A stretch of 32,000 nt of DNA, taken from positions 2,532 through 34,531 of the forward strand of contig JAUWKS010000034.1 in NCBI GenBank assembly GCA_030614005.1, in the 5' to 3' direction. Shown in pieces: positions 1 to 7,405 of the stretch; the first letter of the stretch is position 1; each line of letters begins with the position of its first letter. Below the pieces are notes generated by a model, which had not been told where the DNA came from, made no database searches, and was given only the letters and a program-made list of their open reading frames with translations. This stretch comes from Candidatus Heimdallarchaeota archaeon (GTDB lineage Archaea > Asgardarchaeota > Heimdallarchaeia > JABLTI01). A program made the position numbers and the translations under genes.

Positions 1-156
1 AAGGACATTTTAAAAATCTCTCTTGGGTCAGTTTCCAACCATCTTAAGTATCTTAAAGAACACGATCTTATTAGTGTTAGTGGTCACCTAAGGAATTTAA
101 CAAACTTGGGCCGATTAGTTAAAGAAATTTTGGAAATTAAAGAATCTATAAAATAG
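1..156 (+). CDS. C-terminal part of a winged helix-turn-helix (ArsR/MarR-like) DNA-binding protein, 5'-truncated by the window edge
   Basis: Not in the ORF track. Frame 1 is open from base 1 to TAG at 154-156: KDILKISLGSVSNHLKYLKEHDLISVSGHLRNLTNLGRLVKEILEIKESIK. This fits the wHTH pattern recognition helix (S-x-x-S-V-S-x-H-L-K-x-L), wing, then L-T-x-x-G. Confidence 0.75.
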   Translation, partial: KDILKISLGSVSNHLKYLKEHDLISVSGHLRNLTNLGRLVKEILEIKESIK

Positions 157-298: not shown

Positions 299-1150
299 GT
301 GGTTACAATTGCTGATTGGTTCAATGTTACAATGGATCTAGAATATTCAAGACTTGTAGGATTAATTTCTTATAGTCTTATTCTCGTTGGAACTTTTATC
401 TTTCAATTCACAATAACAAATAAGATAAGAAGCTCAAATGTTAAAAGTGATTCTTATCGGAGCTTTAGGTTGCTATATGTTGCAGTAGCTATTATTGCAG
501 GGACATATGCATCGGATCATTTAGGAGCATTTCTTGGAGGAAATGTTATGCATTCTCAATTCTCGGTTTTTCTATCTATTATTGGATATACAATTGCTAT
601 TTACGCATTAAACTTGTTCCTTCTTAGAATTATCAATTTTAGATCATCGATTAAACGATTTATTCGTGTTCTTACCGTTATCCAAGTAGGTCTTTTGATT
701 TTTGCTAGTATTGTATATTTACTCGCTAGTTTTATTGAAATGCCAGCATTTTTTGTTGACTATACAGTAATGATCTTTGGTGTAACAGTTATATTTGCTA
801 CGATATTTACAATCATCAGTATGCTAACAGAAGCAAGAAAAACAGCAAATAAAATGGTAAAATTGAGATTAAGATTAGCCGCATTAGGAACTTTAGGTAT
901 TTTACTTGAAGGTGCTGCAAATATTCTCCATATTTTACTTGGAACTTTAGGTGCTGATACTACTAATTATTATCAAATAGGTATTCCACTTCTAGCAGTT
1001 CTTTTCTATTCAATATTCATGTTTAGCTATTATTTCTCATTGTTTCCACCAATGTGGTTACAACAAGCAGGTGGAGTATTACCTCCTAGCTTTACTGACT
1101 TGATGAAGAAACAAGAACAATTAAAACAACTCGGGAGTGCAACTAAATGA
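299..1150 (+). CDS. Stand-alone seven-transmembrane protein (predicted N-out/C-in), putative sensor/receptor; HisKA_7TM-like by appearance
   Basis: Seven hydrophobic segments of about 21-25 aa. Basic loops follow TM1, TM3 and TM5 (NKIRSSNVKSDSYRSFR; NFRSSIKRFIR; EARKTANKMVKLRLR); the alternate loops are short and neutral or acidic. No Lys in TM7. Stop overlaps the next start (ATGA, 1147-1150). Confidence 0.75.
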   Translation: MVTIADWFNVTMDLEYSRLVGLISYSLILVGTFIFQFTITNKIRSSNVKSDSYRSFRLLYVAVAIIAGTYASDHLGAFLGGNVMHSQFSVFLSIIGYTIAIYALNLFLLRIINFRSSIKRFIRVLTVIQVGLLIFASIVYLLASFIEMPAFFVDYTVMIFGVTVIFATIFTIISMLTEARKTANKMVKLRLRLAALGTLGILLEGAANILHILLGTLGADTTNYYQIGIPLLAVLFYSIFMFSYYFSLFPPMWLQQAGGVLPPSFTDLMKKQEQLKQLGSATK

Positions 1151-2040
1151 ATGTTACAAATTTCGCAATAATCGAAATTGGAAGAGAAAAAGGTGCTTCC
1201 GCTTTACACGTATCTGGTTTATCAGATAAAATAATGAAGCGCTTACTTATTGAAGCATTGCCACAAGGAAATCCGGAGAATGAATTCTTCAAGATTGTCA
1301 AAATCGAGGATAATCTATTCATCAGCTCACTCATACTTGCTGACAATGAGGACTCTGGTTTAGCTATGATAATAAAATTAGATTCAGCTTTACAAGAAGT
1401 AAATCCAATAGGCTTTATTGATGGTATGAATAAATTATTGAAATCATTTCTAGCAAACAGCGAAAACATCCCTGATGAATTAGATATTTCTTATCTAAAA
1501 ATCGCTTTATCAGAAAATACTTACGAAAATTTTGATACTATTATCTTCTCAATTCTATCTCAACAAAAGACGCTTGTTGTCGGTGAAAAAGACGAGATTT
1601 CGAGTTTTTTCGCTAACCTCTTTGAATTTATTCCCAATAGTTTAAAAGAATATATTACATTAATTGCTAATTCCACGAACCTCTCAAATAATGTCGCTAT
1701 ACACGCATTAATTGTATCTGATGACGTTCTCAAGATAATTGACAACAAGAAAGGAGAATATACCATACTTTTCCTCCCAACAAAGACAGCTTACGGATCA
1801 TTCAGTTCACCATTCTGTAAAAAAGTTGCTCAATTATTTGCCGAACAAAAGAAGGAGAGCATTAAGGAAGAATTAATTCACTTCTTCAAAATATCAATTG
1901 AATCCGAAGAGATCATTCCAATTGCTGATTTCGCTGCAGAACATAAGCTTGCTCTAGCAGATGCCTCACTTCTTCAAAGGATGCGAGCTGGTTACTTTGA
2001 TATCAAAGTCGAAAAAGGATTCTTTGAACAAACAGAGTAG
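1147..2040 (+). CDS. DENN-like protein (uDENN/longin plus cDENN), putative small-GTPase regulator
   Basis: N-terminal FAIIEIGREKG...LLIEALPQG resembles the uDENN start of AVL9/DENND11-type proteins (F-x-x-x-F-D-x-x-x-G...alPxG). The central NFDTIIFSILSQQKTLVVGEKDEISSFFANLFEFIP resembles the cDENN helix-strand-helix-P motif. Lies next to an Arf-like GTPase. Confidence 0.6.
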   Translation: MNVTNFAIIEIGREKGASALHVSGLSDKIMKRLLIEALPQGNPENEFFKIVKIEDNLFISSLILADNEDSGLAMIIKLDSALQEVNPIGFIDGMNKLLKSFLANSENIPDELDISYLKIALSENTYENFDTIIFSILSQQKTLVVGEKDEISSFFANLFEFIPNSLKEYITLIANSTNLSNNVAIHALIVSDDVLKIIDNKKGEYTILFLPTKTAYGSFSSPFCKKVAQLFAEQKKESIKEELIHFFKISIESEEIIPIADFAAEHKLALADASLLQRMRAGYFDIKVEKGFFEQTE

Positions 2041-2048
2041 GTGATATC

Positions 2049-2633
2049 ATGAGTTGGCTTGGACGAATTTTTAAACGGAAAGCAATAGAACAAAAAGCGA
2101 GCCTTGTTATACTTGGATCAAGTGGAGCAGGGAAAACTACTCTGGTCAGATTTCTTGAAACAGGAGAACCTGTTTTAGAGAATCCTCGTACTACACTAGG
2201 AATTGACATTAGGCAATCACCAATTGAAATTAGTGGTTGGTCATTAACTGCAATAGATGTTGGCGGTCAGGAACTCTATCGCGAAAGCTTATGGAGCTTA
2301 GGTGTTTCACAAGCAAGTGCGGTAATCTATGTCCTTGATGGAACTATTAGAAAAACTATCAATAATGATGCTTTTGAGGTATCCAAATTTTCATTTGATT
2401 ATATGTTAACAATTGTTGAAGAAGATGTTCCAATTCTTATTCTAGTCAATAAACAAGATCTTGTAGAGGAAAATCCACTCACTACACAGGAAGCCATTGA
2501 AATGTATGGAATAAGTAATCTCGTTGGACGATCATTCAACATTTTACCAAGTTCTGCAAAATATGGTAATGGTATTGAATTTGCTATAGAGTGGTTGGTT
2601 GATAAGATCGCAGAGAAAAATATTAAGGAGTAA
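2049..2633 (+). CDS. Arf-family (Arf/Arl-related) small GTPase with N-terminal amphipathic helix
   Basis: G1 GSSGAGKTT, G2 TTLG, G3 DVGGQ followed by an Arf-like LW, G4 NKQDL, G5 SSAK, C-terminal GNGIEFAIEWL (compare Arf1 GDGLYEGLDWL). N-terminus MSWLGRIFKRK. SD AGGTGA at 2039-2044. Confidence 0.9.
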   Translation: MSWLGRIFKRKAIEQKASLVILGSSGAGKTTLVRFLETGEPVLENPRTTLGIDIRQSPIEISGWSLTAIDVGGQELYRESLWSLGVSQASAVIYVLDGTIRKTINNDAFEVSKFSFDYMLTIVEEDVPILILVNKQDLVEENPLTTQEAIEMYGISNLVGRSFNILPSSAKYGNGIEFAIEWLVDKIAEKNIKE

Positions 2634-2640
2634 AAATCAC

Positions 2641-3687
2641 ATGGATCCACTAAAGTTCAACGTATACACATCTCTTTCGTCTCTCACAGACGAAGGAATG
2701 ACTATTTTCTATAATCCCAATATTCCTAATATAGATACAGATGATTTAGTAAAAGTAGCAAATTATTACTCAATTATCTTAAACTTCTCTGAGAGCAAAG
2801 GAGCACTATATGGACCACTACCAATCGCTTATCACACAGAATATCTACTTTATATCTATACTTTTGAAACAACAAATCTACAAGTTCAAGATGAAAGAAT
2901 AAAAAGAGACGGTAGTAGAGTTCCTTCATTTCTTCTCATTTTCTTCCCAACAATTGCAGAAAGTTTTACTACAAGAGCAAGAGGACAAATCTCACGTGAG
3001 ATCTCAAATTGGTTAGAACAATTTAAATCGATTCAAGATTTCAAAGATAAGGATGTTAACAAATTAAATTCTCAAATTGAAGCAGCAATATACAAAGAGC
3101 AAAGTATATTTGCACTAGATGAAATCGAAGAAGCTAACGTTGTTCTTGGAAAGAGTGTTGAACTATTACACAACGTCTTAAAATATCAAGAAAAACCTGT
3201 TAAAATACTCCTGTCAGGAACAGATGATCTTTTATTCTCAATTACTCGAAAAGCTATTTTTGGCAATAACTCATCTTTAGTTTCATATTTCAAAAATGAA
3301 AATAACAAAATTGATTTCAAACTTGGAAAAATTGAAGGTACTATTTTACTAGCTTCTGTCAATACACCAAACCTCCACAAATATCTATCAAAAGACTTGG
3401 ATGGCGTTTTACATTTCGGAAACTTCTCAACACCGGAAAGCACTGATGCACATACAGCTGAATTATCTAAAATAATTAAACAAACATCTCAAGATTGCGT
3501 CATTTCATTTGCTATTTGTCAAACAGATAAACCATTAAAAATCAGTGAGACAAAAATACCAGAAGTACTTCAGGAAGGTGTAGGTCGCACAATTTCTTTA
3601 TTAGATATGGGACAACAGAAGAATACAATAAGTACTACGATCATTGAGTTTCTTGAAAAACTAATAGAGTTAATAGGTAAGAAGTAA
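2641..3687 (+). CDS. Longin/uDENN-like N-terminal domain fused to a degenerate (pseudo) small-GTPase domain, 348 aa
   Basis: Real start is probably ATG 2641 (AGGAG at 2626-2630), not 2599. N-half: SLSSLTDEG...LYGPLPI...YIYTF-loop(DER)-SFLLIFFP. C-half keeps the G-domain secondary-structure order with degenerate motifs: KILLSGTDDLLFS, YLSKDLDGVLHFGNFSTPES, VISFAICQTD. Confidence 0.6.
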   Translation: MDPLKFNVYTSLSSLTDEGMTIFYNPNIPNIDTDDLVKVANYYSIILNFSESKGALYGPLPIAYHTEYLLYIYTFETTNLQVQDERIKRDGSRVPSFLLIFFPTIAESFTTRARGQISREISNWLEQFKSIQDFKDKDVNKLNSQIEAAIYKEQSIFALDEIEEANVVLGKSVELLHNVLKYQEKPVKILLSGTDDLLFSITRKAIFGNNSSLVSYFKNENNKIDFKLGKIEGTILLASVNTPNLHKYLSKDLDGVLHFGNFSTPESTDAHTAELSKIIKQTSQDCVISFAICQTDKPLKISETKIPEVLQEGVGRTISLLDMGQQKNTISTTIIEFLEKLIELIGKK

Positions 3688-3750: not shown

Positions 3751-5031
3751 TTATTCTACTAAATTATTCTCAGCAATTAGATTAGTATCTCCATTATTAA
3801 AATCGTTTACTGACTTTCCTACATATCTTACATCTGTTAATAACCAAAGTAAAGCAGTAACAATTAATCCAATAATAATACAACCAAATAAGACATATCG
3901 AATGCTTGTAACTTCTGCGATAATTCCTGAAACTATCATTGATATAGGCATTGCTGCAACGGAAAGTGAAAAAGCAACTGCTTGGAATCTTCCTTGCATC
4001 TCTTTTGGAACAATAGTATGAAACATCGTTTGAGTAATTACATTCACTATTGGCATTGCAAGACCTAAAATTAGTGCTCCTATCCATAACACCCAGAAAT
4101 AACCCCAGGGTGCTATAGCCATTATTGTATAGCCAACAAAACCGACGAGTATGAAAGTTAGTACTATAACCATTTTTTTCTTGATTTTTCTTAGAAAGAG
4201 CATTGCTAATCCTCCTAACAAGATACCTCCATAGTAGAAAGCAAAAACGTAAGCTAACTGAAATGCATCTCCACTATGATCAAATTTTATGTAATAAGGA
4301 GCTTGAGTGTTTACTGGTGTAATTAGAAAATTGAGTGCTGTTGCGAGAAGTAGTAGGCTTAACAACCCTTTTGTGCTTTTAATAAAACTGAAAACTTCCT
4401 TCAATTCAGTTCGATACGATTGACTCTTAACATCCATTTCTTTGGGTTTTGGAAGAGAGATTATTAATAGAGGAATAATTGCGAAGAGAAATGTTCCTAC
4501 ATCTATCCAGAATATTGGATGTGTTGTTGGGATTCTCTCAACAAGAAGAGCTCCTATTAATGGACCAACTAGATTTACTACTCCATTGAAAACAAAATTG
4601 ACTGAATTCATTTGGTTTAAATTCTCTTCTGGAACCATTTGAGGAATGAGCGATCTTACTGCTGGAGTGTGAAATGCTTGGAGTATACCTCGAACTGCTA
4701 AAATAATGAAAACTGACCAGAGTGGAATAGTTGTATATCTAAAAATCAAAATCAAAGCAATGGTGATAACTGCTTGAAGAAAATCAACAACAGCAATTAA
4801 CCACTTCTTATTCCAACGATCTACCCAGACTCCAGCAAAAGGAGCGATAAGCACAAAGAATCCCATACTAAGAAAAGAAGCTAAACCAAGATAGAATTCA
4901 CTTTCATATTCTATTGTTACCCACCAAATAATGGAAAACGTCACAATTGCTGAGCCGAGTAATGAAATAATTTGTCCTGTCCAGAATAACAAAAAACTAA
5001 GATAGCTTTTTTTTGATGCTTCAAAAGTCAA
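3751..5031 (-). CDS. MFS transporter, DHA3/MefA-like efflux family
   Basis: About 12 TM segments; FWTGQIISLLGS start; motif-A-like AGVWVDRWNKK; QTMFHTIVPKEMQGR in the C-half. Confidence 0.9.
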   Translation of the reverse strand: MTFEASKKSYLSFLLFWTGQIISLLGSAIVTFSIIWWVTIEYESEFYLGLASFLSMGFFVLIAPFAGVWVDRWNKKWLIAVVDFLQAVITIALILIFRYTTIPLWSVFIILAVRGILQAFHTPAVRSLIPQMVPEENLNQMNSVNFVFNGVVNLVGPLIGALLVERIPTTHPIFWIDVGTFLFAIIPLLIISLPKPKEMDVKSQSYRTELKEVFSFIKSTKGLLSLLLLATALNFLITPVNTQAPYYIKFDHSGDAFQLAYVFAFYYGGILLGGLAMLFLRKIKKKMVIVLTFILVGFVGYTIMAIAPWGYFWVLWIGALILGLAMPIVNVITQTMFHTIVPKEMQGRFQAVAFSLSVAAMPISMIVSGIIAEVTSIRYVLFGCIIIGLIVTALLWLLTDVRYVGKSVNDFNNGDTNLIAENNLVE

Positions 5032-6065
5032 AGTTTTTTCCTCAATAAAACAAATTCTCTACCTGGTTTGCCACCAAATCGTTTTGCTAATAATTGTGGT
5101 GGAAGATTTGTCTTCATAATAATGGAACCTTCAACATATTGATAATTCTTTTTTAGTAGATTTTCCATTAGCACACTGCTCATTGCAGAGGCAATATTTT
5201 TTTTATGGCTACTCGGTAATGTTCCTATAGATATTATTCTCGCCCTGTCTATTTTTCCTTCTTTTACTTTCTGATAATAATCTGGTGCACAAATTATAAA
5301 CCCAATTGGTTCTCCACTATCTGTTTCCGCAATAATTACTAATTCATCATCCATTAGAGGCAAGAATGCTTTTACGTAAGCTGTATTTTCTTCCAGCGTT
5401 CGGGGAATATAGTCATATCTTTTTCCGAAAATTTTGTTCGTTAGGTAATGATAAATAGCTATTTCTTTCTCAAGGTTTGCTCTGTCAAAAGTGCGTATTT
5501 TCACTCCAGCTACTTCATATTTCTTCTCAAGATAGGTTTCTCGAGTATAAATAATAGATGTGATATTTAGATAGACTTTGAAACCATATTTCTTAAGATA
5601 TTTAAAATAATAATCAGGATTGTGCGATGTTAAGAGTGTGTGAGGTTTATCGAACCCATTAACCAGTAATCCAAAATATCGATTATCTAGTTTTGGTAAA
5701 ATAATCTCTTTTACGTTTTCAATTCGAAAAATTTCAGCACAATAATCAAGAATTGATTTTAAAGATACGAATTCTCCTTCTAGAACTTCAATATAACATA
5801 TCCAACCAATCTTGTTGTTTTTCTTGTCTTTTGCTTTTGGGTGTAAAATAGCCACTGCTCGAGCTAAAGGTTTATCATTTTCATTTAATGCAATTATTGG
5901 CCAGGTTCGAATCTCAGTTTTATTTGTCGAAAAATTAAATTGTTTCTTTATTTCTTCTGGATTCTCAGGAAACCATATTGGATCGTTTTTATAAATTTCA
6001 GAAGGGAGATTGAAGAAGTAATTTATATTTTCATCTTCAAGATTTTTAATTTCAACTATTTTCAT
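5028..6065 (-). CDS. Tandem-GNAT acyltransferase, YghO / bacterial ceramide synthase-like family
   Basis: Family-typical segments FNLPSEIYKNDPIW, GLLVNGFD, HNPDYY..LKKYGF, IIAETDSGEPIGFIICAPDY, IISIGTLP, VEGSIIMKTN...KRFGG. Stop overlaps the MFS start (ATGA). Confidence 0.75.
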   Translation of the reverse strand: MKIVEIKNLEDENINYFFNLPSEIYKNDPIWFPENPEEIKKQFNFSTNKTEIRTWPIIALNENDKPLARAVAILHPKAKDKKNNKIGWICYIEVLEGEFVSLKSILDYCAEIFRIENVKEIILPKLDNRYFGLLVNGFDKPHTLLTSHNPDYYFKYLKKYGFKVYLNITSIIYTRETYLEKKYEVAGVKIRTFDRANLEKEIAIYHYLTNKIFGKRYDYIPRTLEENTAYVKAFLPLMDDELVIIAETDSGEPIGFIICAPDYYQKVKEGKIDRARIISIGTLPSSHKKNIASAMSSVLMENLLKKNYQYVEGSIIMKTNLPPQLLAKRFGGKPGREFVLLRKKL

Positions 6066-7386
6066 TTTGGAACCTTCTAATTACTCGTATCAATTTCTTG
6101 GATCTAGGATTTCTCTCAGGTTTCTCCGTTGAGAATTCAACATTCCCTAGTTCAGCATTTAATTTCTCAACCCAGAAATTTAGATTCTCAATGATTTTCT
6201 TTTCAATAGCCTCTCTGTTCTTTTCACTCTTCAAGACGATTCTAATTTCTATTTTATCCATTGCTTTCTGGATTGCTTGATATTCTTCTATTTCCTGAGA
6301 AGCTTGATTTATCGACCTTCTCACATAATCTGGAAAAAGATAGCTTATTTCTCCATTACTGTTTTGCAGATGGAAGATATCATCAGAGCGCCCGTGAATT
6401 TTTTCAATAACTCTAAAACAAGAACCACAGTTGCATTTTGCTTCTTGCAACTCAATGATGTCATTCATCTCATAACGGATAATTGGTTGGGTTGTTCGGT
6501 ATAGATCTGTAATGAGCAAATTTTTTGCATTCCCTATTTTATCACCTACATCTAACGTTTCAATGAGTAAAACATCTTCATTTAGATGTAAGCTACCACA
6601 TCTACAAGTTGAAGCAATAAAACCCTCAGCACCTTGATAAATTTCTACGATAGGTACTTCATAAATTTCTTCCAACTTCTCTCGAGTAGCTTTTGATAGT
6701 ACTTCTGCATAAGAAATAACTGCCTTAATAGGATGGTCAATTTGATCCTTCTTACCGCTAATGATTACTAATAAAGATGGGGGACCAGAAAGAATGTTTA
6801 ATTTCTTGGAGTTGATGAGTTTAATTATTTCTTCAACAGATAAAGTATAATCAATGTAAACTAAATGAATGCCAAAATTACTTATTTCATTAAAAGTAGG
6901 GTTATTTCTACGAAGAGCAAAAAGAATTCTTCTATTTTTAACTGATTTTGGAATACCATTTCTAGAGAACAATAAACAATTGTACAAATCGCTTTCATTT
7001 TGAGAAAGAACGGTGAGAGCTTTATTCCCAGAAGTGCCTGAAGAAAGTCCTATAGAATATTCTCCTTGAAACCTTGAGTATTGTCCTTTCTTTTCTTGAG
7101 CAATTGTGTAAGCAACTAAATCTTCTTTCCGTAAATTTCTAGTATTGATCAAATCGAAATTGTCCATCATTTCACTTTTAGTCATTATTGGTATTTGTTC
7201 AAGTGAGATTTCATCCGAACCGGAAAAAAGATTAGCATAATATTCAGAATTCTTTCGACTAAATTCGATTATTTTTTTCAATTGTTTTTTTTGATGTGCT
7301 TCTAGTTTCTCTCTATTCCATTTGTAGAATTGTTGTTGCAGTTTTCGTATATTGAATAATTTCTGAATAATGTTCATTTTAGACAT
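6052..7386 (-). CDS. Adenylate-forming ligase, phenylacetate-CoA ligase (PaaK)/F390-synthetase-like
   Basis: ANL motifs LSSGTSGNK, EIYQGAEG, PIIRYEMND, IHGRSDD. Probable start ATG 7386 (the track extends to TTG 7419, inside the upstream gene). Confidence 0.85.
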   Translation of the reverse strand: MSKMNIIQKLFNIRKLQQQFYKWNREKLEAHQKKQLKKIIEFSRKNSEYYANLFSGSDEISLEQIPIMTKSEMMDNFDLINTRNLRKEDLVAYTIAQEKKGQYSRFQGEYSIGLSSGTSGNKALTVLSQNESDLYNCLLFSRNGIPKSVKNRRILFALRRNNPTFNEISNFGIHLVYIDYTLSVEEIIKLINSKKLNILSGPPSLLVIISGKKDQIDHPIKAVISYAEVLSKATREKLEEIYEVPIVEIYQGAEGFIASTCRCGSLHLNEDVLLIETLDVGDKIGNAKNLLITDLYRTTQPIIRYEMNDIIELQEAKCNCGSCFRVIEKIHGRSDDIFHLQNSNGEISYLFPDYVRRSINQASQEIEEYQAIQKAMDKIEIRIVLKSEKNREAIEKKIIENLNFWVEKLNAELGNVEFSTEKPERNPRSKKLIRVIRRFQNENS

Positions 7387-7405
7387 CACACATTTTCTGT
7401 TATGG

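What the first reader, a model, noticed from the sequence alone, without database searches (positions are those of the whole stretch)
2641..3192. Longin-like domain with a candidate arginine-finger loop (possible Arf GAP)
Seen: strand YIYTF, loop ETTNLQVQDERIKRDGSRVP, strand SFLLIFFP, with R86 (2896-2898), R89 and R93. Established: FLCN (Arg164) and SMCR8 (Arg147) present the catalytic Arg in the beta4-beta5 loop of the longin domain, and C9orf72-SMCR8 is a GAP for ARF1. Inference: R86 of the D-x-R motif may be the equivalent arginine finger for the adjacent Arf-like GTPase.
Basis: inference. Interest (0 to 1): 0.72.

Follow-up and report, generated by a model that had tools for sequence, protein, structure and literature searches.

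The report
Archaeal longin protein, candidate Arf GAP
A Heimdall-group archaeon encodes, directly after an Arf-type GTPase gene, a protein whose N-terminal longin domain resembles the catalytic domains of the eukaryotic folliculin/SMCR8/NPRL2 GTPase activators and keeps one arginine nearly invariant in the same loop, so it is a testable candidate for the still unknown regulator of archaeal Arf proteins.

Summary
Gene 2641-3687 (348 aa) has strand YIYTF, a 14-residue loop and strand SFLLIFF, with R86 encoded at 2896-2898.

- **Fold:** AlphaFold models give a confident longin fold for residues 9-125. The loop lies between beta4 and beta5.
- **Conservation:** R86 and D84 are nearly invariant (R in 38 of 39 homologues down to about 20% identity). 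R89 and R93 are not conserved.
- **Structural neighbours:** the closest are a Lokiarchaeal longin, then Lst4, C9orf72 and a folliculin-complex chain. The margin over other longin and roadblock domains is modest.
- **C-terminal half:** residues 187-347, outside the finding, form an Arf-like GTPase fold without P-loop lysine or DxxGQ, so a pseudo-GTPase.
- **Neighbours:** the upstream genes are an intact Arf-family GTPase and a protein with a DENN-like core. The cluster (membrane protein, DENN-like, Arf, this protein) recurs in Heimdall genomes down to about 40% identity. More distant homologues have no adjacent Arf.

Arg-finger GAP activity towards Arf is plausible but unproven. The one co-folding job gave no verdict, and no Pfam or PDB sequence match exists. 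Heimdall longins with a candidate Arg finger were described in 2025 with the partner GTPase left open. This is a new variant with a direct genomic link to Arf. First-stage notes of this scan on this same window describe the same operon.

The parts
299..1150 (+). Polytopic membrane protein (283 aa, about 7 hydrophobic segments), first gene of the cluster; its stop overlaps the start of the next gene
   Evidence: ORF. A hydropathy scan gives 7 segments, and BLASTP finds weak homologues upstream of P0001-family genes in L007 and L008 (E 5e-8 to 5e-6 in a tiny database). A gene of the same size sits in the same place in L058, L060 and L062. Only a sub-threshold Pfam hit (DUF3593, E 0.021, 15.3 bits against a cut-off of 25).
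1147..2040 (+). P0003, 297 aa: a protein with a DENN-like core whose N-terminal third looks longin-like by eye. No arginine in its presumed beta4-beta5 loop (ADNEDSG).
   Evidence: No Pfam or PDB sequence hit. Profile-profile match to the DENN core of Heimdall proteins that pass the Pfam Folliculin cut-off: probability 86%, E 5e-6, columns 128-253; these in turn weakly match the SMCR8 DENN core. Language-model neighbours are Folliculin, C9orf72, DENND11, Avl9 and SMCR8 clusters at 0.79-0.89, which are leads only. No structure was predicted for it. Alignment A5.
2049..2633 (+). P0002, 194 aa: intact Arf-family small GTPase with an amphipathic N-terminus, GSSGAGKT, DVGGQ (Q74), NKQD and SAK
   Evidence: Pfam Arf PF00025 E 2.4e-23. 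All G motifs are invariant in 35 homologues.
2641..3687 (+). P0001, 348 aa: longin domain, long helix and Arf-like pseudo-GTPase domain
2665..3015 (+). Longin domain (residues 9-125), order beta-beta-alpha-beta-beta-beta-alpha-alpha
   Evidence: Models; fold searches.
2695..2697 (+). G19 in the beta1-beta2 loop, invariant. It aligns with the G of the GP motif in paralogues of the same genome; the following P is replaced by M/I/L/V/F in this family.
2812..2823 (+). G58-P-L-P61 at the start of beta3, nearly invariant
2890..2898 (+). D84-E85-R86 in the beta4-beta5 loop. R86 is the candidate arginine finger.
   Evidence: DNA. D in 37/39 and R in 38/39.
3046..3180 (+). Long helix (residues 136-180) linking the two domains
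3199..3681 (+). C-terminal small-GTPase fold (residues 187-347). It lacks the P-loop GK[ST] (reads LLSGTDD) and DxxGQ, so it is a pseudo-GTPase, probably derived from an Arf-like gene.
   Evidence: Foldseek against PDB puts Arf, Sar1 and Asgard ArfR chains on top (E 2e-6 to 1e-4, TM by target 0.5-0.63). A collinear but weak profile alignment to the neighbouring Arf family covers the whole domain (E 0.0035, probability 9%), with a shared G-R-[ST] motif.

Best explanation
P0001 is the arginine-bearing longin subunit of an archaeal longin-type GTPase-activating module for the Arf-family GTPase encoded directly upstream, and probably also for the 72%-identical Arf paralogue about 3 kb upstream.

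Proposed mechanism, by analogy with FLCN-FNIP, NPRL2-NPRL3, C9orf72-SMCR8 and Avl9:
1. One end of the longin sheet docks on GTP-bound Arf. That end carries the beta1-beta2 loop with G19, the G58-P-L-P start of beta3 and the beta4-beta5 loop.
2. R86 inserts next to the gamma-phosphate beside the catalytic Q74 of the Arf.
3. The neighbouring DENN-like protein P0003 has no arginine in the equivalent loop. It would be the non-catalytic partner, or the exchange factor.
4. The Arf-derived pseudo-GTPase domain of P0001 would serve as a binding or regulatory module.
5. The membrane protein at the head of the cluster would place the module at the membrane.

Shown here: the fold, the loop position, conservation of R86, the pseudo-GTPase domain, the DENN-like neighbour and the gene linkage. 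Inferred: binding, heterodimer formation, catalysis and every role assigned to the partners.
For: - **Fold.** Longin fold with the GAP-type longins among its nearest solved neighbours: Lst4 Z 9.8, C9orf72 Z 9.0, a folliculin-complex chain Z 8.5. Foldseek lists GATOR1 chains, Lst4 and FLCN. AFDB clusters named 'Folliculin/SMCR8 longin domain-containing' match. In the Atlas, C9orf72 scores TM 0.69, SMCR8 0.68 and a Heimdall cluster with 23% Folliculin hits 0.74.
- **Conservation.** R86 is R in 38/39 homologues. Only six columns are conserved in a 31%-identity alignment, and from the strand order all lie at the same end of the sheet.
- **Homology to GP-motif longins.** The N-domain profile finds two shorter paralogues in the same genome (E 2.8e-13 and 7.6e-5). 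Both carry a GP motif in the beta1-beta2 loop, and one has D-D-R at the aligned position. This is the class described in PMC12290439.
- **The substrate candidate looks GAP-dependent.** It is an intact Arf with an invariant catalytic Gln. A Heimdall Arf was measured to have very low intrinsic GTPase activity (PMC11914678).
- **Linkage.** DENN-like, Arf and P0001 lie in this order in L004, L006, L060 and L061. Arf and P0001 are adjacent in L007, L013 and L062. In L058/L059 the Arf lies four genes upstream of P0001, in the same cluster.
- **Partner.** P0003 has a DENN-like core (86%) and lacks the loop arginine, like FNIP and C9orf72.
Against: - No sequence-level match of P0001 or its profile to Folliculin, NPR2, C9orf72 or any PDB chain. 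The profile comparison with Heimdall FLCN-like proteins is weak (probability 3.8%).
- The Z-score margin over non-GAP longin and roadblock domains is only 1-2 units (TRAPP, Mon1-Ccz1 and roadblocks score 7.3-7.7).
- The loop is 8 residues longer than in the Heimdall FLCN-like proteins and SMCR8, and its motif is K-D-x-R-[VI], not A-R-G.
- The P of the GP motif is absent.
- The domain after the longin is not DENN.
- Distant homologues in family f2 keep R86 but have no adjacent Arf, so Arf is not shown to be the family-wide partner.
- One own-genome paralogue has E at the aligned position.
Confidence: 0.5

Rival explanations
1. P0001 is a non-catalytic GTPase platform, effector or exchange-factor subunit, like the longin/roadblock domains of Mon1-Ccz1, TRAPP, Ragulator, SRX-SRbeta or DENN GEFs. 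D84 and R86 would then hold the loop together or bind the partner without touching the nucleotide.
For: Longin and roadblock GEF subunits and platforms score almost as well as the GAP longins: Mon1-Ccz1 7.7, TRAPP 7.7, Gse1 8.0, MglB 7.3. The neighbour P0003 has a DENN-like core, and DENN proteins are mostly GEFs (Liu et al. preprint). The A-R-G motif of the known fingers is absent.
Against: Per the literature read here, a near-invariant arginine in the beta4-beta5 loop, next to a conserved glycine in the beta1-beta2 loop, marks the GAP longins and not other longins (PMC12290439; bioRxiv 10.64898/2026.01.05.697756). I did not check this independently.
Confidence: 0.27
2. R86 is a finger for a different GTPase, for example one of the Rag-like or Rab-like GTPases of the genome, and the Arf adjacency in this lineage is secondary. 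A further possibility is that R86 contacts the protein's own GTPase-like domain.
For: Family f2 homologues keep D-x-R without a neighbouring Arf. The own-genome paralogue with D-D-R lies between an Arf-family GTPase with a C-terminal extension and a Ras/Rab-like GTPase. The N-domain occurs in many other architectures of up to 934 aa.
Against: Arf genes are in the cluster in every close relative examined, at 38-100% identity. The own C-terminal domain has lost P-loop lysine and DxxGQ, so it offers no obvious nucleotide to act on. Homologues that consist of the N-domain only keep the arginine.
Confidence: 0.15
3. The domain has nothing to do with GTPase regulation, and the conserved patch binds another ligand or protein.
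For: PAS, GAF and LOV-type sensor domains also appear in the fold lists at lower rank.
Against: These hits have lower scores and shorter alignments. The protein is fused to a GTPase-like fold and is repeatedly linked to Arf genes and a DENN-like gene.
Confidence: 0.05

Closest known systems
Eukaryotic longin-domain GAP subunits: FLCN (with FNIP), SMCR8 (with C9orf72), NPRL2 (with NPRL3)
   Same: Longin fold and a conserved arginine in the beta4-beta5 loop. A conserved glycine in the beta1-beta2 loop. A neighbouring gene for a DENN-like protein that lacks the arginine. An Arf-family GTPase as the probable client, as for C9orf72-SMCR8.
   Different: No sequence-level match. The loop is 8 residues longer and carries K-D-x-R-[VI] rather than A-R-G. 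GP is replaced by G-[MILVF]. The longin is followed by an Arf-like pseudo-GTPase, not a DENN domain. The protein is 348 aa, much smaller. Activity is untested.
Heimdallarchaeial 'FLCN/SMCR8-type' longins with GP motif and arginine finger (Traffic 2025, PMC12290439)
   Same: Same archaeal class and same proposed function. The N-domain profile detects GP-motif paralogues in the same genome (E 2.8e-13).
   Different: The published set could not be inspected because the supplement is not held. This family lacks the P of GP, carries a pseudo-GTPase domain and lies next to an Arf gene. The paper leaves the client GTPase (ArfR or Rag) open.
Monomeric DENN GAPs (Avl9, DENND6A; bioRxiv 10.64898/2026.01.05.697756)
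   Same: Arginine finger between beta4 and beta5 of a longin subdomain, a second alpha/beta domain in the same chain, and Arf-family substrates.
   Different: The second domain there is cDENN; here it is a degenerate small-GTPase fold. No sequence relation was found.
Longin domain of a Lokiarchaeota Roadblock-Longin protein (PDB 8yqg)
   Same: Best structural match: Z 11.5, rmsd 2.7 A over 118 residues, 14% identity.
   Different: Different architecture (roadblock plus longin). No paper on its function was found in the library.
Asgard operon of a LAMTOR1-like roadblock protein, a Rab-like GTPase and a DENN protein (Liu et al., bioRxiv 10.1101/2020.10.19.343400)
   Same: A DENN-type protein, a small GTPase and a longin/roadblock protein encoded together in Asgard archaea.
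   Different: There the GTPase is Rab-like, the third protein is a LAMTOR1-like roadblock, and the proposed role is a GEF. Here the GTPase is Arf-family, the third protein is an arginine-bearing longin fused to a pseudo-GTPase, and a membrane protein heads the cluster.

Membership tests
Longin domain (fold) | Five-stranded antiparallel sheet in the order beta-beta-alpha-beta-beta-beta-alpha-alpha | tested here: met
   DSSP of both models: E9-16, E19-24, H33-47, E56-61, E68-78, E93-103, H104-112, H114-125. Longin chains top the fold lists.
Longin-domain GAPs (FLCN / SMCR8 / NPRL2 class) | Conserved arginine in the beta4-beta5 loop | tested here: met
   R86 is R in 25/25 (A1), 26/27 (A2) and 38/39 (A3). 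The loop lies between strands 68-78 and 93-103.
Longin-domain GAPs (FLCN / SMCR8 / NPRL2 class) | GP motif in the beta1-beta2 loop (PMC12290439) | tested here: inconclusive
   G19 is invariant and aligns with the G of GP in own-genome paralogues. The next residue is M/I/L/V/F, never P, in this family.
Longin-domain GAPs (FLCN / SMCR8 / NPRL2 class) | Nearest structural neighbours are the GAP-type longins rather than other longins | tested here: inconclusive
   Lst4 9.8, C9orf72 9.0, folliculin-complex chain 8.5 and SMCR8 6.8, against TRAPP 7.7, Mon1-Ccz1 7.7 and roadblocks 7.0-7.5. The trend is right but the margin is small.
Longin-domain GAPs (FLCN / SMCR8 / NPRL2 class) | Sequence membership in Pfam Folliculin (PF11704), NPR2 (PF06218) or C9orf72-like | tested here: not met
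   No Pfam family at E up to 1 for P0001 or for any of the 39 N-domains. Other proteins of the same genome do pass the PF11704 cut-off. The profile comparison to them gives probability 3.8%.
Longin-domain GAPs (FLCN / SMCR8 / NPRL2 class) | Longin followed by a DENN domain in the same chain | tested here: not met
   The C-terminal domain is a small-GTPase fold. The DENN-like core is in the separate neighbour P0003.
Longin-domain GAPs (FLCN / SMCR8 / NPRL2 class) | Heterodimer of two longin proteins that binds the GTPase; arginine-dependent GAP activity | not testable with these tools
   This needs pairwise co-folds with coordinates, or biochemistry.
Arf-family small GTPase (C-terminal domain of P0001) | G1 GxxxxGK[ST], G3 DxxGQ, G4 NKxD | tested here: not met
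   The fold is Arf-like. G1 reads SGTDDLL with no lysine, G3 is absent, and G4 is reduced to [CS]-Q-T-D in close homologues only. It is a pseudo-GTPase.
Asgard GP-motif longins (homology) | Detectable sequence homology to GP-motif longins of the same genome | tested here: met
   Profile A3 against the own genome: C87 protein (258 aa) at E 2.8e-13 and C49 protein (267 aa) at E 7.6e-5. Both carry D-[ST]-G-P and F-G-P-L-P-V.

The most novel reading that the evidence does not exclude
The cluster is a self-contained, membrane-anchored Arf switch module of Heimdallarchaeia. It consists of a 7TM-like protein, a minimal DENN-like protein, an Arf GTPase and an arginine-bearing longin fused to an Arf-derived pseudo-GTPase. 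The two non-GTPase proteins form a heterodimeric GAP (or a GEF plus a GAP) for Arf. The module would then be a prokaryotic counterpart, possibly a forerunner, of C9orf72-SMCR8 / FLCN-FNIP, and would supply the first native regulator of an Asgard Arf.
Probability: 0.3. Interest if true: 0.82.

Novelty: new variant of a known kind. Interest (0 to 1): 0.62.

Why it matters
Asgard Arf proteins have been shown to behave as nucleotide-dependent membrane switches with very low intrinsic GTPase activity. A structure-based search found no native GAP or GEF, and the authors state that the regulators remain to be established (PMC11914678).

The 2025 survey of longin GAPs asks whether ArfR or Rag GTPases are the partners of the Heimdall arginine-bearing longins (PMC12290439). 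Another study notes that in the cultured Lokiarchaeon MK-D1 GTPase genes are generally not in operons with longins, so pairs are hard to predict (PMC10933270).

Here a longin with the conserved arginine lies 7 nt after an Arf gene, in a cluster that recurs across Heimdall genomes. That names a concrete GTPase-regulator pair that can be expressed and assayed. If the pair is active, it dates the longin-type Arf GAP mechanism to before eukaryotes.

Tried and rejected
- **Complex prediction.** P0001, P0003, Arf and GTP, with Arf as the partner. Result: no verdict. The score was 0.51, but 0.45 when P0001 was replaced by an unrelated protein. This job is not used for or against binding. Only one job was allowed, so the pairwise runs it recommends could not be made. 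The position of R86 relative to GTP therefore stays untested.
- **Sequence searches.** P0001 and the N-domain profile against Pfam, NCBIfam and PDB sequences found nothing. The only weak PDB rows (coagulation factor VIII, E 0.23) rest on a short Y-Y-S...G-P-L stretch and are taken as chance.
- **Profile A3 against the Heimdall FLCN-like family A7.** Collinear but weak: E 0.011, probability 3.8%. Against a single FLCN-like protein there was no signal.
- **P0003 against P0001 profiles.** No relation, so they are not recent paralogues.
- **Pfam NPR2 (PF06218) in the own genome.** No match.
- **R89 and R93 as fingers.** Rejected on conservation.
- **An intrinsic finger in the Arf.** R47 of switch I is R in about 77%, K in several and N in one homologue, so it is not invariant and an intrinsic finger is unlikely.
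- **Promoter and terminator scan.** No more sites than in shuffles, and it uses bacterial consensus patterns that do not suit an archaeon.
- **Published Asgard longin set.** The supplement of PMC12290439 is not held, so I could not check whether this family is among its 15 Asgard longins.
- **PDB 8yqg.** The literature search for 'Roadblock-Longin' found no paper on it.

Full report
**Observation.** The window (32% G+C) carries four closely spaced genes on the plus strand:
- 299-1150: a membrane protein.
- 1147-2040: P0003, 297 aa.
- 2049-2633: P0002, 194 aa.
- 2641-3687: P0001, 348 aa.

The finding covers residues 1-184 of P0001. The translation and the DNA confirm strand YIYTF, the loop from E76 to P95, strand SFLLIFFP, and R86 at 2896-2898, together with R89 and R93.

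**Fold.** P0001 has no hit in Pfam, NCBIfam or PDB sequences. AlphaFold2 with 25 homologues gives mean pLDDT 87. It predicts:
- A beta-beta-alpha-beta-beta-beta-alpha-alpha domain at residues 9-125.
- A long helix at 136-180.
- An alpha/beta domain at 187-347.

The N-domain modelled alone with 39 homologues reaches pLDDT 93 and pTM 0.86. An exhaustive structural comparison with 48,161 PDB representatives ranks these first:

| Chain | Z |
|---|---|
| Longin domain of a Lokiarchaeal Roadblock-Longin protein, 8yqg (rmsd 2.7 A over 118 residues) | 11.5 |
| Lst4 longin, 4zy8 | 9.8 |
| C9orf72, 7o2w_A | 9.0 |
| A chain of the FLCN-FNIP2-Rag-Ragulator complex, 6nzd_H | 8.5 |
| A SEA-complex chain | 7.9 |
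| 6ulg_N (FLCN-FNIP2-Rag-Ragulator complex) | 7.5 |
| SMCR8, 6lt0_B | 6.8 |

Other longin and roadblock domains (TRAPP, Mon1-Ccz1, MglB, VAMP7, AP sigma) score 6-7.7. The domain is therefore clearly a longin, and the preference for the GAP-type longins is a trend of 1-2 Z units. The other searches point the same way:
- Foldseek lists 8yqg, GATOR1 chains, Lst4 and FLCN at E 1e-3 to 1e-1.
- AFDB clusters include Asgard entries named 'Folliculin/SMCR8 longin domain-containing protein'.
- The ESM Atlas gives C9orf72 (TM 0.69), SMCR8 (0.68) and a Heimdall cluster in which 23% of members hit Pfam Folliculin (0.74).

**Conservation.** The family is small and archaeal: 34 clusters at 90% identity, named only 'hypothetical protein' from Heimdallarchaeota MAGs, and 63 representatives at 50% identity.
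- In the close set, D84 and R86 are invariant, and R89 and R93 vary.
- In the wide N-domain alignment (39 sequences, 31% mean column identity) only G19, G58, P59, P61, D84 and R86 reach 85%. R86 is R in 38/39, R89 in 7/39 and R93 in 3/39.
- By the strand order of the model, the beta1-beta2 loop (G19), the start of beta3 (GPLP) and the beta4-beta5 loop (D-x-R) all lie at the same end of the sheet. This is inferred from topology; no coordinates were available.
- The N-domain is better conserved than the rest of the protein: mean top-residue frequency 0.44 against 0.32-0.33 in A2.

**Relation to known arginine-finger longins.** The N-domain profile finds two shorter paralogues in the same genome (E 2.8e-13 and 7.6e-5).
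- Both have a true GP motif in the beta1-beta2 loop (D-S-G-P and D-T-G-P) and F-G-P-L-P-V.
- One has D-D-R and the other D-S-E at the position of D-E-R.
- G19 therefore corresponds to the G of the GP motif that the 2025 Traffic paper reports as specific to the GAP longins and to a class of Heimdall longins (PMC12290439).

The genome also has proteins that pass the Pfam Folliculin cut-off. They carry GP and an A-R-G-G loop. Their profile aligns, weakly, with SMCR8 so that their A-R-G falls on the A-R147-G of SMCR8.

Relative to these, P0001 has the same strand-loop-strand layout. Its loop is 8 residues longer, its motif is K-D-x-R-[VI], and the profile-profile score is weak (probability 3.8%). 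The residue-level equivalence of R86 and the known fingers therefore rests on the shared loop, not on an alignment.

**C-terminal domain.** Foldseek puts Arf, Sar1 and Asgard ArfR structures on top. A weak but collinear profile alignment to the neighbouring Arf family spans the whole domain. The P-loop lysine and DxxGQ are missing, so the domain is a pseudo-GTPase, probably a degenerate copy of an Arf-like gene.

**Neighbours.**
- **P0002** is an intact Arf-family GTPase (PF00025, E 2.4e-23) with all G motifs and the catalytic Gln invariant.
- **P0003** has no Pfam hit. Its C-terminal half matches the DENN core of the Heimdall FLCN-like family at 86% probability. Its language-model neighbours are Folliculin, C9orf72, DENND11, Avl9 and SMCR8 clusters, which are leads only. 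Its presumed beta4-beta5 loop has no arginine.
- **Upstream of the window**, on the same contig, lie a second Arf paralogue (72% identical) and a 241-aa protein with a C-terminal helix-turn-helix-like stretch.

**Synteny.**
- The order DENN-like, Arf, P0001 recurs in two genomes of the same genus (L004, L006) and in a 46%-identical relative (L060, L061).
- Arf and P0001 are adjacent in L007, L013 and L062.
- In a 41%-identical relative the cluster reads Arf, 227-aa protein, 290-aa protein, 299-aa protein (P0003-sized), P0001-like, with no Arf directly before P0001.
- A polytopic membrane protein, weakly homologous to the one at 299-1150, precedes the cluster in several lineages.
- More distant homologues (about 22% identical, family f2) keep D-x-R but have no adjacent Arf. 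Small membrane proteins lie upstream instead.

**Distribution.** In a sample of 300 genomes of the phylum, 78 had a match. Almost all were in the window's own class: f1 10/10, f2 28/28 and f4 20/21, against 0/76 and 1/68 in the two largest other families.

**Interpretation.** The most likely reading (about 0.5) is a longin-type, arginine-finger GAP subunit for the neighbouring Arf, working with the DENN-like protein. The chief rival is a non-catalytic platform or GEF subunit, followed by a GAP for another GTPase. The single complex job gave no verdict, and it is not used as evidence either way.

**What is known.**
- Asgard DENN, NPRL2-like and longin proteins, and a roadblock / Rab-like / DENN operon, were described by Liu et al..
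- Heimdall longins with GP and an arginine finger were described in 2025, with the partner left open.
- Arginine fingers between beta4 and beta5 define the Avl9-type DENN GAPs.
- A search for native Asgard Arf GAPs found none.

This family has the architecture longin plus Arf-like pseudo-GTPase, the motif G-[MILVF] in place of GP, and a direct link to Arf. In the literature I could search it appears to be an undescribed variant.

First-stage notes of this scan on the same window describe the same operon. I had reached the same reading before consulting them, except that my hydropathy check of the membrane protein came afterwards.

Noticed in passing
L024:1311-1889 and L024:1962-2687 (same contig, just upstream of the window; the second gene runs into window 1-156): A second Arf paralogue (192 aa, 72% identical to P0002) is followed by a 241-aa protein with a C-terminal helix-turn-helix-like stretch. 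The cluster may therefore begin upstream of the window. A 41%-identical relative has the same order of gene sizes with only this upstream Arf (L058).
   Followed up: partly
L003:446-3008 (own genome, contig C49): A 267-aa longin paralogue with a GP motif and D-D-R lies between a 326-aa Arf-family GTPase with a C-terminal extension and a 173-aa Ras/Rab-like GTPase. This is a second longin-GTPase cluster in the same genome.
   Followed up: partly
L026:634-1887 (-) and L026:2567-3178 (+); L025:386-1543 (own genome, contigs C74 and C57): Two proteins of about 385-417 aa pass the Pfam Folliculin cut-off. They carry GP, an A-R-G-G loop and a DENN-like core. One is divergently adjacent to another Arf-like GTPase gene. 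Homologues were found only in families f1 and f4 of the class.
   Followed up: partly
L062:2055-3412 and L062:5051-6569: In a 54%-identical relative, two extra genes (271 and 181 aa, no Pfam hit) lie between the DENN-like gene and the Arf gene. Two further Arf paralogues of 184 aa follow the P0001 homologue.
   Followed up: no
window 3751-8824, minus strand: Four tightly packed genes: a 426-aa and a 472-aa polytopic transporter-like protein, a 345-aa protein and a 455-aa protein. They seem unrelated to the GTPase cluster and were not analysed.
   Followed up: no
window 3586-3600 (P0001 residues 316-320) and 2529-2543 (P0002 residues 161-165): The pseudo-GTPase domain and the neighbouring Arf share a G-R-[ST]-[FI] motif at aligned positions (R316 and R161, each invariant in its family). 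This hints that the pseudo-GTPase derives from this Arf lineage.
   Followed up: partly
ESM Atlas row 2: A Promethearchaeota cluster of 341-aa proteins carries an Arf domain (100% of members) and also matches the longin model (TM 0.70). Longin-Arf fusions with an apparently intact GTPase therefore exist.
   Followed up: no
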